Source of the DNA: a virus
Lineage: Duplodnaviria; Caudoviricetes
IMG/VR virus record: IMGVR_UViG_3300014205_000182
Coordinates: 64,001-128,000 of that record
Length of the DNA: 64,000 nucleotides
Direction: 5' to 3' (one strand)
Position numbers and translations under genes: made by a program
Notes under the pieces: model-generated
The model's database searches: none
What the model was told of the DNA's origin: nothing
The model's input: the letters and a program-made list of their open reading frames with translations, nothing else
Shown: positions 43,203-48,409 of the stretch, piece after piece
Layout: every line of letters starts with the position of its first letter
Position numbering within the stretch: position 1 is the stretch's first letter

Positions 43203-43248
43203 GTGCGCCCCTGGACTGAGGGTCGGGGGACGGGGTCCAGGGGCGCAC
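43203..43248 (+). other. 14-bp perfect hairpin with G-rich loop
   Basis: GTGCGCCCCTGGAC/GTCCAGGGGCGCAC; four G-tracts. Confidence 0.7.
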
Positions 43249-43364
43249 ATCCTTTTATGTCCAGCAAGCATTACAACCCTGAAAAACGTGTATGGCGAGG
43301 CCGCTCCTACAAGAACGGCAAGCGTGTTTCTGAACTCAAGTACTCCAACAAAGGTAGTGACACA

Positions 43365-45005
43365 ATGGCAAACATTCTGAATCCAAAGTCTCCGAAGAAG
43401 ATCGACCAAGTCGAAACCCACAAGAACTGGATGGGTGGAACTTCGTTCGACATCAACGATCCAATCATGCGGCTGCGCATCGCAGCTAGCTCGTGCTTCT
43501 TTGGCGAGCCACAGTACTACTCGACGGACCCTGACGACAAGCGCAAGGCGCGTCAGGCATCTATGCCTGCTAACTTCGGGAAGCCGACGACACTGCCGGC
43601 AGCGCAGCTTACCAAGCTTCGTCAGACGCTGACGGCCATCGATCCTCAGGAGTGGCGGTCGATGACGCCGGCTCAGGCGATGGTCTCTGCTATCGACGCA
43701 GCCCTAGACCACGACCCTGAGGCAACGCTCGGCATTGCAGCAGCGCTTCGCCAGGCTGATCACATCCGTACGACGCCCCAGGTTATCCTGGTTCGTGCAG
43801 CACACCACCCCAAGGTTCGTGGTACTGGCATGCTCAAGAAGTATGCTCAGGAGATCATGGCACGTGCAGACGAGCCGGCCGTCGGTCTCGCATACCACAT
43901 CTTTGCCTACGGCAAGGAGAAGCCAATCCCGAACGCCCTGAAGAAGGTGTGGGCACAGCGCCTCGCACGTGCTTCGGAGTACGACCTCGCCAAGTATCGC
44001 CTGGCTGACCACTCGGTCAAGACGGTCGACGTCGTCAACCTCGTTCACGCCAAGTCTCCAGCAATCGGAAAGCTCATGAAGGGTGAACTTACGACCGAGG
44101 GCGAGACGTGGGAGTCCATCATCTCGCAAGGCGGATCTACCAAGGAAAACTGGGAGAAGGCCATCGACAAGATGGGCCACATGGCCCTACTGCGAAACCT
44201 GCGTAACTTCAACGACAAGGGTGTTAACCCGTCGCTGTACACTGGCAAGCTCGTTGGTGGCGCAGCGACCGGTAAGCAGCTTCCGTTCCGCTATTACTCG
44301 GCGTACAAGGCTGTCGCCGGTTCTTCGGCACCGGTGATGGACGCTATCGAGCAGTGTCTGGAGATTTCGCTGGGTAACCTGCCGAAGTTCCCGGGCCGTA
44401 CGATGGCGCTTGCCGACAACTCGGGCTCGGCTCGTGGTGCAACCACGTCCACGATGGGAACGATGCAGGTTTCGACGATTGCTAACTTGACGGCTATCGT
44501 GGCCGGCAAGGTGTCGGACGACGGCTACATCGGTGTCTTCGGTGACACGTTGAACGTCGTGCCGGTGCGCAAGAGGTCGTCGGTGTTCGATCAGTTGAAG
44601 GCTGCCGACGAAGCTGGTGCAGCAGTCGGCGGTTCTACCGAGAACGGTATCTGGCTGTTCTGGGAGAAGGCTATCCGCGAGAAGGAGCATTGGGACAACG
44701 TGTTCGTGATGTCTGATATGCAGGCAGGTCACGGCGGGCTCTATGGTACGCGTGCGTCGATGGCGTCGTACTCTCGTGAGTACGGTTGGCCGGCAGCTAA
44801 CTCGCCGCACATCGACGTCGCCAAGCTCGTCAACACGTATCGCGCCAAGGTCAACCCGAAGGTCAACGTGTTTCTAATCCAGGTCGCCGGTTACCAGGAC
44901 ACCCTGATGCCGGAGTTCTACAACCGTACGTATATCCTCGGCGGATGGGGTGAAGGCGTTCTTCGCTTTGCTGCCGCGATGGCTAATATCGGAGAGGTTA
45001 AGTGA
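43365..45005 (+). CDS. Ro60/Rsr (TROVE + vWA) RNA-binding protein (alternative start 43257)
   Basis: FFGEPQYY, R.DE, MALLRNLRN, LPFRYYSAY, DNSGS MIDAS, SDMQ. Confidence 0.9.
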   Translation: MANILNPKSPKKIDQVETHKNWMGGTSFDINDPIMRLRIAASSCFFGEPQYYSTDPDDKRKARQASMPANFGKPTTLPAAQLTKLRQTLTAIDPQEWRSMTPAQAMVSAIDAALDHDPEATLGIAAALRQADHIRTTPQVILVRAAHHPKVRGTGMLKKYAQEIMARADEPAVGLAYHIFAYGKEKPIPNALKKVWAQRLARASEYDLAKYRLADHSVKTVDVVNLVHAKSPAIGKLMKGELTTEGETWESIISQGGSTKENWEKAIDKMGHMALLRNLRNFNDKGVNPSLYTGKLVGGAATGKQLPFRYYSAYKAVAGSSAPVMDAIEQCLEISLGNLPKFPGRTMALADNSGSARGATTSTMGTMQVSTIANLTAIVAGKVSDDGYIGVFGDTLNVVPVRKRSSVFDQLKAADEAGAAVGGSTENGIWLFWEKAIREKEHWDNVFVMSDMQAGHGGLYGTRASMASYSREYGWPAANSPHIDVAKLVNTYRAKVNPKVNVFLIQVAGYQDTLMPEFYNRTYILGGWGEGVLRFAAAMANIGEVK

Positions 45006-46331: not shown

Positions 46332-46682
46332 ATGAGGCATAGTGGACGTTTCGATTGGCAGCTGGCCGGGATCATTGGGGTGATCACCGGCATAGTTGCG
46401 TTAAGTGGGCTAGGTATCTGGAAATACGCAGAGCATCGCGCCAAGTGTACAGATAACGGCGGTCACTGGGAGACCTACGACTGTCATACCGAACATTACA
46501 CGCAATGTCACCACAACGGCAGCGGCGAGGTTACGATTTGTCTGCCAGCTACACGTCGTGTGTGTAGTGAGCGTTGTGTTGGCGTGCGTGCCGAGAAGGT
46601 GTGTGAAGGAACCACCTGTTCCCCGATCAACGTCGAGTCTCACGTCGGACCGGTGCTAGTCCCGGAGTCTGTGAAGCCCTGA
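46332..46682 (+). CDS. membrane-anchored Cys-rich protein
   Basis: one transmembrane helix followed by multiple Cys. Confidence 0.65.
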   Translation: MRHSGRFDWQLAGIIGVITGIVALSGLGIWKYAEHRAKCTDNGGHWETYDCHTEHYTQCHHNGSGEVTICLPATRRVCSERCVGVRAEKVCEGTTCSPINVESHVGPVLVPESVKP

Positions 46683-46698
46683 TCTGGTTTACTGAGGT

Positions 46699-46986
46699 AT
46701 GACACCTTCAGTTCCTTTAGTAGCTCACTATAAGCGTGGCGAAGTACGCGAAATCAGCCTTCGTGTGATCGCTATCTCTCCTCAGAACGTAATGCTTGTC
46801 CTCTGGGAGAATAAGCTCGTTCCTGTACATCAGCCTCCAATGGGCCTACAACTAGATCGGGTAGAGATTTTAGTTGAACCGCCTGCTACCTCAGTAGTGA
46901 ACGTTAGCGTTCAGCCAGAGCCCAAGAAGCCAGGCCGACCGAAGAAGGTTGAATCCGACCCTGAGAAGCCGGATGAGACTGTATAA
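46699..46986 (+). CDS. hypothetical protein
   Basis: ORF with KKPGRPKK. Confidence 0.6.
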   Translation: MTPSVPLVAHYKRGEVREISLRVIAISPQNVMLVLWENKLVPVHQPPMGLQLDRVEILVEPPATSVVNVSVQPEPKKPGRPKKVESDPEKPDETV

Positions 46987-47449
46987 GTCTGGCAGTCGCT
47001 ACCTGGAGTTCGGCGATATTCGATTACCAGAACACTTTTGGTCGAAGTGTATTCCAGAGCCTAATAGTGGCTGCTGGTTATGGATTGCGTCCAAAACTAC
47101 CAACGGGTACGGTAAATTCTCAATAGCTCGCAGGCTACATCCAGCACATCGTGTCGCTTGGGAAGCACTGAACGGGGAAGTACCGTGCGGGCTGGAGATG
47201 GATCATCGTTGTCGTACCAGGTGTTGTGTTAACCCCGCGCACCTCGAAGCGGTGAAACACAAAACTAATGTCCGTCGCGGCACTGCCGGGGATGCACAGG
47301 CTGCTAGAAGTCACTGTCCTTCTGGTCATCCTTATGACGCCACTAATACCAGTATTCACCTGCGACGTGGTATGATGACTTACCGAAGATGCCGGCAGTG
47401 TGATCGTAAGCACTGGCGGGAGTATAAACGGAGGATTCGTGCAAAATAA
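46973..47449 (+). mobile_element. HNH homing endonuclease
   Basis: SGCWLW, GYG, AHRVAW, DH.C..RCCVNPAHL, HCP.GH. Confidence 0.9.
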
Positions 47450-47879
47450 GAAAAGGCTATACAAAAGCGGTTCAAAATTTGCGCTGTGGCGTTGGACCCA
47501 GACAGACACCGGCTACATCACGCGTTTTCACTTACTGAAGACGCCATGGTTTGCCATCTGTCTTCACTGGCTCAATCACCCAGACCCGGAACCATATGAC
47601 CACGACCATCCGGTTACGTTCCTCAGCCTTATCTTGCGAGGTTGGTACCGTGAACAGCGAACGGTAACGCTGACGACGACACACACTGTTAAACATCGTT
47701 GGTACAACTTCATTCGCGCGACACCGACGTTTGCACATACTATTGTGGAGGTTGCCCCTAAGACTCTGACGCTTGCTATCATGGGACCTAAGACCAGAGA
47801 ATGGGGTTACCACCTGCCTGGTGGCTGGATGCATTGGAAAACTTATACTGACCTGAAACGACGAGGCATCCAACCGTGA
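47439..47879 (+). CDS. cupin-like protein
   Basis: HDHP..F.S.IL.G.Y.E...H; GTG start after GGAGG. Confidence 0.7.
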   Translation: MQNKKRLYKSGSKFALWRWTQTDTGYITRFHLLKTPWFAICLHWLNHPDPEPYDHDHPVTFLSLILRGWYREQRTVTLTTTHTVKHRWYNFIRATPTFAHTIVEVAPKTLTLAIMGPKTREWGYHLPGGWMHWKTYTDLKRRGIQP

Positions 47880-48409
47880 CCAAGAACGCCAAGCACAGCA
47901 AAGAAACGAACCGCTGGGGGACCCCTAACGGTTCTGCTCAGGACGGTGAAGACATCGTGGATCGTTGTCGTCGAGTCATGGGTTCGATCGACTTAGACCC
48001 GTGCTCTGAAGCTCGTTTCAATGCTGTCGTAAAGGCGACCACCTACTACTCGTTTTTGGAACGAGGTGAAGATGGTCTACTTCTGCCTTGGTACGGCAAT
48101 GTCATGTGTAACCACCCGGGTGGACTGACGAAACAGTTCTGGCGCAAGGCAATCAACTCCGACGCTAAACAGATTATGTGGATCGGGTTCTCGAATGAAC
48201 AGCTTGGAATACTAGCCGACGAAGCGGCACATCCGTCGGATTTCTCCATATGTTATCACCGGAAGCGAATTCCTTTTACACGCCATGACGGTTATGAGGG
48301 TGCCCCGGCTCATGCAAACTACATCTGTGGTATTAACGTCGATCACGACGCTTTCATTCGAGAATTCGGAGATCTGGGGAAGATTCAGAAGGGACCACTG
48401 TGCCGGTGA
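47876..48409 (+). CDS. phage DNA N6-adenine methyltransferase-like protein
   Basis: WGTP, IDLDPCS, DGL...W.G.V.CNHPG. Confidence 0.7.
   Translation: MTKNAKHSKETNRWGTPNGSAQDGEDIVDRCRRVMGSIDLDPCSEARFNAVVKATTYYSFLERGEDGLLLPWYGNVMCNHPGGLTKQFWRKAINSDAKQIMWIGFSNEQLGILADEAAHPSDFSICYHRKRIPFTRHDGYEGAPAHANYICGINVDHDAFIREFGDLGKIQKGPLCR

What the first reader, a model, noticed from the sequence alone, without database searches (positions are those of the whole stretch)
46973..47480. HNH cassette captures a gene's start and supplies a fully recoded replacement N-terminus
Seen: the HNH begins M-RLYKSGS-RY and the next gene begins VQNKK-RLYKSGS-KF. All seven identical residues use different codons (AGA CTG TAT AAG TCT GGC AGT versus AGG CTA TAC AAA AGC GGT TCA), so there is no DNA repeat. 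Inference: the element inserted about 9 codons into the cupin gene, uses the original start, and carries its own GGAGG plus a recoded 5' end. That restores the gene and would remove the target site: splicing-free, self-repairing homing.
Basis: partly seen in the sequence, partly recalled or inferred. Interest (0 to 1): 0.72.

Follow-up and report, generated by a model that had tools for sequence, protein, structure and literature searches.

The report
HNH cassette replacing a gene start
A selfish DNA-cutting-enzyme gene sits ten codons inside a phage cupin gene, borrows that gene's start codon and brings a foreign substitute gene start, so the cupin stays whole without an intron or intein, as known from yeast and fungal mitochondria.

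Summary
The HNH_3 ORF (46973-47449) begins MRLYKSGSRY. The next ORF (GTG 47439-47879) begins VQNKKRLYKSGSKF. All seven shared residues use different codons, and no DNA repeat links the two copies.

The motif is the native N-terminus of the downstream cupin-fold family; nearly all of about 120 homologs start that way. None of 222 other HNH relatives carries it. Their start Met aligns with residue 11 (CTG) of this ORF.

A syntenic relative without the HNH (L001) shows the empty site. Its cupin start resembles the stub now fused to the HNH (19/27 nt). It does not resemble the working 5' end (10/27 nt), although the gene bodies are each other's closest relatives. The working gene is therefore probably a chimera of a foreign start and a resident body.

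A related HNH clade sits directly upstream of cupin homologs in three other phage lineages. In one of them (L202) an 18-codon cupin stub is stranded before the HNH, about 15 nt from the junction seen here.

Best reading: a splicing-free homing cassette that replaces a gene end, a 5' phage mirror of yeast WHO elements. Cleavage and immunity of the new end are untested. This scan has noted similar cassettes on other DNA.

The parts
46699..46986 (+). Upstream 95-aa gene of unknown function. Its last 14 nt overlap the captured start codon. It would serve as the left homology arm for homing.
   Evidence: ORF list. It has a homolog directly upstream of the cupin in the HNH-less relative L001 (65% aa identity).
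46973..47002 (+). Stranded resident 5' end of the cupin gene: the start codon plus 9 codons (MRLYKSGSRY), now the in-frame leader of the HNH ORF.
   Evidence: It matches the family N-terminal motif. It is 19/27 nt identical to the L001 cupin start, the same level as the gene body (0.71). The region upstream of the start aligns to that of L001.
46973..47449 (+). HNH_3 endonuclease ORF (158 aa), translated from the captured cupin start.
   Evidence: Pfam PF13392 scores 48.6 bits against a cut-off of 24.8. PHROG 826 E=1e-42. All 27 invariant family columns are kept. There is no other canonical in-frame start before residue 76.
47003..47449 (+). Native part of the HNH gene. Its first codon, CTG (Leu11), aligns with the start Met of most relatives.
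   Evidence: Alignment A2. Relatives begin M-x-F-(L/G)-D-x-R-L-P.
47430..47441 (+). Ribosome-binding site GGAGG (47430-47434) and GTG start (47439-47441) of the working cupin gene, embedded in the 3' end of the HNH ORF (11-nt overlap).
   Evidence: Sequence. The start position fits the family, which has 0-6 residues before the motif.
47439..47490 (+). Replacement 5' end of the cupin gene, with foreign ancestry. The right-hand boundary is approximate (about 47480-47505).
   Evidence: Only 10-12 of 27 nt match L001 in protein-conserved windows, against 17-24 elsewhere, and 0 of 7-8 codons are the same against a 37% baseline. There is a 21-nt identical run (47450-47470) with L031, whose gene body is only 60% identical.
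47439..47879 (+). Working full-length cupin-fold gene (146 aa), a chimera of the replacement 5' end and the resident body.
   Evidence: 291 homologs. PHROG 4786. AlphaFold2 mean pLDDT 89.9, with Foldseek matches to cupin dioxygenases and HppE. The body is closest to L001 (0.71 nt, 0.81 aa).

Best explanation
This is a free-standing HNH_3 homing-endonuclease cassette of the gene-end-replacement kind.

Shown from anatomy and comparison:
- The unit, HNH gene plus ribosome-binding site plus GTG start plus about 14-17 foreign cupin codons, lies after codon 10 of the resident cupin gene.
- The resident start and first ten codons are left as a stub that is fused in frame to the HNH. The HNH has lost its own start and is translated from the host gene's initiation site.
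- The cupin gene is whole again because the cassette supplies a new start and N-terminus joined to the resident gene body.

Inferred mechanism:
- In a mixed infection the HNH cuts or nicks a naive cupin allele in the DNA that encodes the conserved Y-K-S-G-(S/T)-x-W stretch.
- The break is repaired from the HNH-bearing genome. The upstream gene plus stub is the left homology arm, and the cupin body is the right arm.
- The cassette is copied in and the recipient's old 5' end is stranded.
- The replacement 5' end differs from the stub at 11 of 27 positions, and so would not be recut.

The first formation of the in-frame fusion probably needed a one-sided, illegitimate join at the break.
For: 1. 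The motif is native to the cupin family and foreign to the HNH family.
2. There is an empty site in the syntenic relative L001/L002. It has the same gene order of TROVE, small genes, cupin and methyltransferase-like gene, and no HNH.
3. The stub and its upstream ribosome-binding region are orthologous to the L001 cupin start (19/27 nt). The working 5' end is not (10/27 nt, 0 of 7-8 codons the same against a 37% baseline). Instead it shares a 21-nt identical run with L031.
4. The HNH depends on the captured ATG and keeps every family-invariant residue.
5. There is no room for an intron or intein and no signal of either. The ORFs are contiguous or overlapping, and there is no Rfam hit.
6. The arrangement recurs. 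A well-supported HNH clade (SH-aLRT 99) sits directly upstream of cupin homologs in L007/L043, L195-L201 and L202.
7. L202 keeps an 18-codon stub of a different cupin allele right before the HNH. The stub is 75% identical in DNA to the HNH-less allele L203. Its junction lies at Y-K|S-G, about 15 nt from the junction in the window.
8. The design matches the experimentally supported WHO model: a chimeric host gene, discordant ancestry of the replaced end, and a stranded old end (PMC7282813). It also matches intronless homing and one-sided illegitimate repair in T4 (PMC2988022).
Against: - No cleavage data exist, and the target site and the immunity of the new end are inferred.
- The exact fusion occurs only in this genome among 223 HNH-family proteins inspected.
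- The window's HNH does not fall inside the cupin-linked clade. The tree is poorly resolved, and its nearest relatives sit next to other genes.
- None of 84 other HNH loci has a cupin within 2 kb, and only about 4 lineages out of about 95 cupin loci carry an HNH.
- The statistics for the chimera rest on short segments (p about 0.03-0.04 for codon identity).
- An allele like the replacement end also occurs in an HNH-less phage (L031), so it is not exclusive to the cassette.
Confidence: 0.7

Rival explanations
1. One-off accident. A single illegitimate recombination placed an HNH gene and a piece of a foreign cupin gene here. The arrangement is a frozen scar, and the HNH is no longer mobile at this site, or is inactive or domesticated.
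For: The fusion is unique to this genome. The nearest HNH relatives lie in unrelated contexts. One-sided illegitimate repair is documented in T4 (PMC2988022).
Against: The HNH keeps all invariant residues and an intact full-length ORF. A related HNH clade shows the same linkage in three other lineages, one of them with a stub whose junction is about 15 nt away. As it stands, the architecture already provides both homology arms needed for homing.
Confidence: 0.2
2. Two tandem cupin paralogs once stood here, as in L049. The HNH replaced all but the first ten codons of the first paralog, and the downstream gene is simply the second paralog, not a repaired gene.
For: L049 carries two cupin genes about 1 kb apart.
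Against: The closest syntenic relative, L001, has a single cupin between the same neighbours. Both the stub and the body of the working gene are L001-like, while only the working 5' end is not. That fits a chimera, not two whole paralogs.
Confidence: 0.05
3. A local duplication of about 30 bp arose at insertion (like a target-site duplication), and the two copies later drifted apart at synonymous sites.
For: The two copies flank the insert in direct orientation.
Against: All 7 codons differ, including two Ser switches between codon families that each need two or more changes. Yet no amino acid changed in the stub, which has no evident reason to be conserved. The two copies also have different nearest relatives: L001/L030 for the stub and L031 for the working 5' end.
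Confidence: 0.02
4. Metagenome assembly chimera that joins two strains.
For: The record is an uncultured virus contig.
Against: There is no shared sequence at either junction that could mislead an assembler. Logan's separate assembly gives an identical 97-kb contig at depth 16, with no loose ends at the junctions, though probably from the same sample. L202 shows the same architecture in another study.
Confidence: 0.02

Closest known systems
WHO elements at FBA1 in Torulaspora and Lachancea yeasts (Coughlan et al. 2020, PMC7282813)
   Same: The nuclease gene homes into a coding region without an intron or protein splicing. The element carries a replacement gene end, so the host gene becomes a chimera. 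The old end is stranded beside the nuclease. The replaced end and the gene body have discordant ancestry.
   Different: WHO replaces the 3' end, whereas here the 5' end is replaced together with a ribosome-binding site and start codon. WHO proteins are intein-like LAGLIDADG/zinc-finger proteins of a eukaryote. Here the nuclease is a 158-aa phage HNH_3 enzyme that is also fused in frame to the stranded stub and uses its start. Cleavage has been shown for WHO6 and has not been shown here.
Mobile endonuclease ORFs of fungal mitochondria that carry a duplicated host-gene end (Tremella fuciformis, PMC7315562; Allomyces macrogynus atp6, from my own knowledge of Paquin et al. 1994, not read here)
   Same: A foreign partial copy of the host gene travels with the mobile element and replaces part of the resident gene, which leaves a duplicate.
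   Different: Those are organellar LAGLIDADG or GIY-YIG elements, often inside introns. The duplicates span tens to hundreds of codons. They have not been described for phage HNH genes.
Intronless homing by free-standing phage endonucleases (T4 SegF, SegG, MobE; review PMC2988022)
   Same: A free-standing HNH or GIY-YIG gene between phage genes cuts the neighbouring gene in naive genomes and is copied in with co-conversion of flanks. L007 and L195 show that classical arrangement next to the cupin gene.
   Different: Classical cases sit between genes and leave no stranded gene end. Here the insert lies inside the coding sequence, and a replacement end keeps the gene whole.
Endonuclease insertions that split phage genes (Aeh1 mobE in nrdA, T4 mobA in gene 60; PMC2988022)
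   Same: An HNH gene is inserted in a coding region with no intron or intein.
   Different: Those insertions leave two polypeptides that must reassemble. Here the gene is not split, because the short N-terminal piece is replaced by a full substitute.
One-sided, illegitimate double-strand-break repair during T4 intron homing (Parker et al., as reviewed in PMC2988022)
   Same: Homology on one side only gives junctions at ectopic positions. This is the likely origin of the stub-HNH join.
   Different: That was described in engineered crosses with introns. Here it is inferred from a natural junction.

Membership tests
Pfam HNH_3 (PF13392) endonucleases | Domain score above the curated cut-off | tested here: met
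   48.6 bits against 24.8 over residues 57-101. PHROG 826 'HNH endonuclease' E=1.4e-42.
Pfam HNH_3 (PF13392) endonucleases | Conserved catalytic and metal-binding residues retained (D-H...N...H core, Cys pairs) | tested here: met
   All 27 invariant columns of a 28-sequence alignment are present. The ORF is full length.
Homing endonuclease gene (functional class) | Sporadic presence at an otherwise conserved locus, with an empty site in relatives | tested here: met
   L001/L002 are syntenic and lack it. Only about 4 lineages of about 95 cupin loci carry an HNH.
Homing endonuclease gene (functional class) | Site-specific cleavage of the empty allele, with its own allele resistant | not testable with these tools
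   This needs enzyme assays. The only hint is two independent junctions about 15 nt apart in the Y-K-S-G coding stretch.
Gene-end-replacement homing elements (works like WHO or fungal mORF elements) | Nuclease gene inside a host coding sequence without intron or intein | tested here: met
   The stub runs in frame into the HNH, and the HNH 3' end overlaps the new start. There is no Rfam intron hit.
Gene-end-replacement homing elements (works like WHO or fungal mORF elements) | The element supplies a substitute gene end that yields a full-length host gene, and the old end is stranded next to the nuclease | tested here: met
   The working gene has the complete family N-terminus. The 30-nt stub lies at 46973-47002.
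Gene-end-replacement homing elements (works like WHO or fungal mORF elements) | The replaced end and the gene body have different ancestry | tested here: met
   The body is closest to L001 (0.71 nt), whereas the 5' end scores 0.44 with L001 and 0.69 with L031. The stub is L001-like. Support is moderate because the segments are short.
Gene-end-replacement homing elements (works like WHO or fungal mORF elements) | Recurrence of the same design at the same gene | tested here: met
   L202 has an 18-codon stub, then the HNH, then a new 5' end. No second copy of the window's own fused form was found.
WHO protein family (membership proper) | Intein-like LAGLIDADG nuclease with zinc finger, at FBA1 | tested here: not met
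   The nuclease is HNH_3 and the host gene is a phage cupin. It works like a WHO element but is not a member of the family.
Intron- or intein-borne endonuclease | Flanking ribozyme or in-frame intein splicing blocks | tested here: not met
   No group I or II model was hit at E<=1. No non-coding space exists. The host gene is a separate ORF with its own start.
Cupin superfamily (downstream gene) | Double-stranded beta-helix fold with conserved metal-binding His residues | tested here: met
   AlphaFold2 mean pLDDT 89.9. The best Foldseek hits are HppE/Psf4, cysteine dioxygenase YubC and 3-mercaptopropionate dioxygenase, with E about 5e-5 and TM 0.5-0.58. H55, H57 and H100 are invariant. There is no Pfam hit. 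The biochemical function was not tested.

The most novel reading that the evidence does not exclude
Phage HNH cassettes use a 5' mirror of the yeast WHO strategy as a regular way of life. They home into the first codons of a conserved gene, live off that gene's translation start, and carry an immune substitute start. On this reading, the strikingly variable N-termini of this cupin family are the accumulated product of repeated 5'-end replacement. Those N-termini have 0 to about 37 residues before the invariant R-x-Y-K-S-G, and some include a membrane-helix-like leader.
Probability: 0.4. Interest if true: 0.7.

Novelty: new variant of a known kind. Interest (0 to 1): 0.6.

Why it matters
Selfish endonuclease genes were long thought able to live inside genes only when hidden in introns or inteins, or at the price of splitting the gene. 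A third way, bringing a spare gene end, was demonstrated in yeast only in 2020.

This locus gives a compact phage example at the 5' end. It comes with an empty-site relative and a second independent case, and the two junctions narrow the likely cut site to about 20 bp. That makes splicing-free homing directly testable with one small enzyme and two short DNA substrates.

It also matters for annotation. Such cassettes create chimeric genes, misleading N-terminal 'extensions' on nucleases, and local phylogenetic discordance.

Tried and rejected
- Megablast of 3 kb against 50,697 phage records found no match. tblastn of the cupin there gave only weak partial hits.
- DNA for the contigs of P0005 and P0122 was not available.
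- I looked for a cupin near 84 other HNH-family loci and found none within 2 kb. The link is therefore not family-wide.
- The contexts of the window HNH's nearest relatives and of the sisters of the cupin-linked clade are unrelated genes such as YqaJ, PDDEXK and amidase.
- An HNH tree could not place the window's enzyme. It sits weakly beside P0123, and a single origin of cupin linkage is neither shown nor excluded.
- A profile search of PDB sequences with the HNH alignment gave no hit.
- Base composition is uninformative. The replacement 5' end is 39% GC against 52-54% around it, but it is only 51 nt long and Lys-rich, and the HNH itself has genome-like GC.
- The promoter and terminator scan found nothing inside the cassette. 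The Rfam scan gave only a chance-level lncRNA hit.
- Sequencing runs: no RNA holder is listed.
- A 2025 freshwater run holds two 151-nt unitigs, one identical and one with five differences, covering most of the upstream gene. The second ends at 46989, so it cannot show whether that relative carries the HNH.
- My first reading was a purely one-off illegitimate repair scar. I downgraded it after finding L202 and reading the WHO model.

Full report
**1. Observation**

- The window comes from an uncultured virus record of 143,724 bp, estimated about 90% complete. It holds one copy each of the HNH and the cupin gene.
- Around the finding, all genes lie on the + strand and overlap or abut.
- ATG 46973 lies 14 nt inside the end of a 95-aa gene. 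It opens a 158-aa ORF that begins MRLYKSGSRY and ends at TAA 47447-47449.
- Inside the last codons of that ORF lie GGAGG (47430-47434) and GTG 47439. The GTG opens a 146-aa ORF that begins VQNKKRLYKSGSKF.
- The seven shared residues use seven different codons, and both serines change codon family.
- A repeat search with 6-nt seeds finds no direct repeat between the two copies.

**2. What the two genes are**

- The first ORF is an HNH_3 endonuclease: Pfam scores 48.6 bits against a cut-off of 24.8, and PHROG 826 gives E=1e-42.
- The second ORF has no Pfam family. It matches PHROG 4786, annotated 'cysteine dioxygenase'.
- It has 291 database relatives.
- Its AlphaFold2 model has mean pLDDT 89.9 and is an all-beta barrel. 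The best solved matches are cupin enzymes: HppE/Psf4, YubC cysteine dioxygenase and 3-mercaptopropionate dioxygenase, with E about 5e-5.
- 'Cupin' is therefore right at the fold level. The enzyme's function is unknown.

**3. Whose motif is it?**

- Nearly all of the 120 listed cupin relatives begin with M, then 0-6 residues (a few have longer leaders), then (R/K)-x-Y-K-S-G-(S/T)-x-(W/F).
- Several begin exactly MRLYKSG(S/T). R6, Y8 and G11 are invariant.
- Among 223 HNH-family proteins gathered in two searches, only the window's own has the motif.
- The relatives start M-x-F-(L/G)-D-x-R-L-P. In the alignment, their Met falls on Leu11 (CTG, 47003) of the window ORF. One relative has a few residues before an L-E-F-L-D stretch, so the join is at the native start or within a few codons of it.
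- The only canonical in-frame start codons before the conserved HNH N-terminal region are ATG 46973 and a poorly placed TTG 46949. The next one is at residue 76.
- The HNH has therefore lost its own start and depends on the captured one.

**4. The empty site**

- L001, and the shorter L002, is a metagenome contig with the same gene order: TROVE gene, small genes, a homolog of the 116-aa gene, a homolog of the upstream gene, the cupin, then a methyltransferase-like gene. It has no HNH.
- Its cupin starts at a GTG that overlaps the stop of the upstream gene, and it reads V-K-N-R-L-Y-K-S-G-M-R-W.
- The DNA before and across this start aligns with window 46955-47002, including the purine-rich ribosome-binding stretch.

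**5. The working gene is a chimera**

Comparisons with L001:
- The cupin body is the closest of all relatives (0.71 nt, 0.81 aa; the next complete genes score about 0.63).
- Protein-conserved 9-codon windows in the body share 17-24 of 27 nt.
- Codons 6-14 of the working gene share only 10-12 of 27 nt.
- None of the 7-8 identical residues in that 5' region uses the same codon, against a 37% baseline in the body (p about 0.03-0.04).
- The stub fused to the HNH shares 19 of 27 nt and 3 of 7 codons, which is the normal level.

Comparison with L031:
- The working 5' end has a 21-nt identical run (47450-47470) with L031, a phage whose cupin body is only 60% identical.

Conclusions:
- The stub is the resident gene's own start.
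- The present start is foreign.
- The join between foreign and resident sequence lies somewhere around 47480-47505.

That all seven codons differ is expected 3-8% of the time for two unrelated alleles under this phage's codon usage. It excludes a recent duplication but does not prove designed recoding.

**6. Recurrence**

- A first survey found a related HNH (48% identity) directly upstream of a cupin homolog in L007/L043. That HNH has its own start, and its stop overlaps the cupin ATG. This is the classical free-standing arrangement.
- A search with that HNH found close relatives (80% and 73% identity). All of them lie directly upstream of cupin homologs: L195-L201 (seven contigs from different samples) and L202.
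- These three HNHs form a well-supported clade (SH-aLRT 99). Their sisters sit next to YqaJ genes.
- In L202, an 18-codon ORF (MKFLAALFTLSAWFRSRK, then a stop) lies between the upstream gene and the HNH start.
- That ORF is the beginning of another cupin allele. It matches the HNH-less gene of L203, from a neighbouring run accession, at 13 of 18 residues and 75% of 44 nt.
- The working cupin downstream of the L202 HNH starts with a different leader, like that of L195.
- The L202 stub ends at Y-K|S-G. The window's stub ends five codons later.
- This gives two independent stranded starts, with junctions about 15 nt apart in the most conserved coding stretch of the gene. That is what a site-specific cut followed by repair from a cassette-bearing genome would leave.

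The window's own HNH lies outside the cupin-linked clade in a poorly resolved tree, so common or separate origin of the linkage stays open. Other members of this large family (over 5,900 proteins at E<=1e-20) sit in many other contexts.

**7. Mechanism**

Shown:
- the anatomy;
- the origin of the stub;
- the HNH's dependence on the captured start;
- the separate ancestry of the new 5' end;
- the absence of an intron or intein;
- the absence of internal promoter- or terminator-like sites.

Inferred:
- The HNH cleaves naive alleles near the Y-K-S-G coding stretch.
- Repair uses the upstream gene plus stub and the cupin body as homology arms.
- The cassette is copied in, and the new 5' end escapes recutting.

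This is the logic demonstrated for yeast WHO elements at the 3' end of FBA1 (PMC7282813), mirrored to a 5' end. The first creation of the in-frame join fits the one-sided illegitimate repair described for T4 (PMC2988022).

**8. Rivals**

- A frozen one-off scar remains possible (0.2).
- Tandem paralogs, local duplication with drift, and assembly error are each poorly compatible with the data.

**9. Novelty**

- Gene-end replacement by endonuclease elements is known in yeast nuclei and fungal mitochondria (PMC7282813, PMC7315562, PMC8393795).
- Intronless homing and gene splitting are known in phages (PMC2988022).
- In the papers I searched I found no description of a phage HNH that replaces a 5' gene end and takes over the host start codon.
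- Earlier notes of this scan report similar cassettes on other DNA. I did not check them. One of them led me to the WHO paper, which I did read.

Noticed in passing
L202:246-302: An 18-codon stranded cupin start lies immediately before a related HNH gene in a 955-nt Logan contig. The matching HNH-less allele is L203, from a neighbouring run accession. It is a second natural example of the same design.
   Followed up: yes
L049:2024-3435: One phage contig carries two cupin-family genes about 1 kb apart, possibly tandem paralogs.
   Followed up: no
cupin family, proteins P0030, P0040, P0062, P0064, P0091; L195:2915-2990: The stretch before the invariant R-x-Y-K-S-G varies from 0 to about 37 residues. 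In several members it is a hydrophobic, membrane-helix-like leader, and in L195 and L202 that leader type travels with the HNH.
   Followed up: partly
window 43203-45005: A 600-aa ORF whose L001 counterpart carries a precomputed TROVE (Ro60-like) Pfam hit. Earlier notes of this scan describe Y-RNA-like elements just upstream.
   Followed up: no
If so, this phage carries several homing-type elements.
   Followed up: no
window 46648-46989: A 2025 freshwater metagenome run holds two 151-nt unitigs here, one identical and one with five differences. They cover most of the upstream gene, and the second ends 17 nt into the captured start. A close relative therefore exists in another habitat, with unknown HNH status.
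   Followed up: partly
window 47876-48409: The gene after the cupin matches PHROG 111, annotated 'DNA methyltransferase' (E=4e-10), and is conserved in L001 and L017.
   Followed up: no
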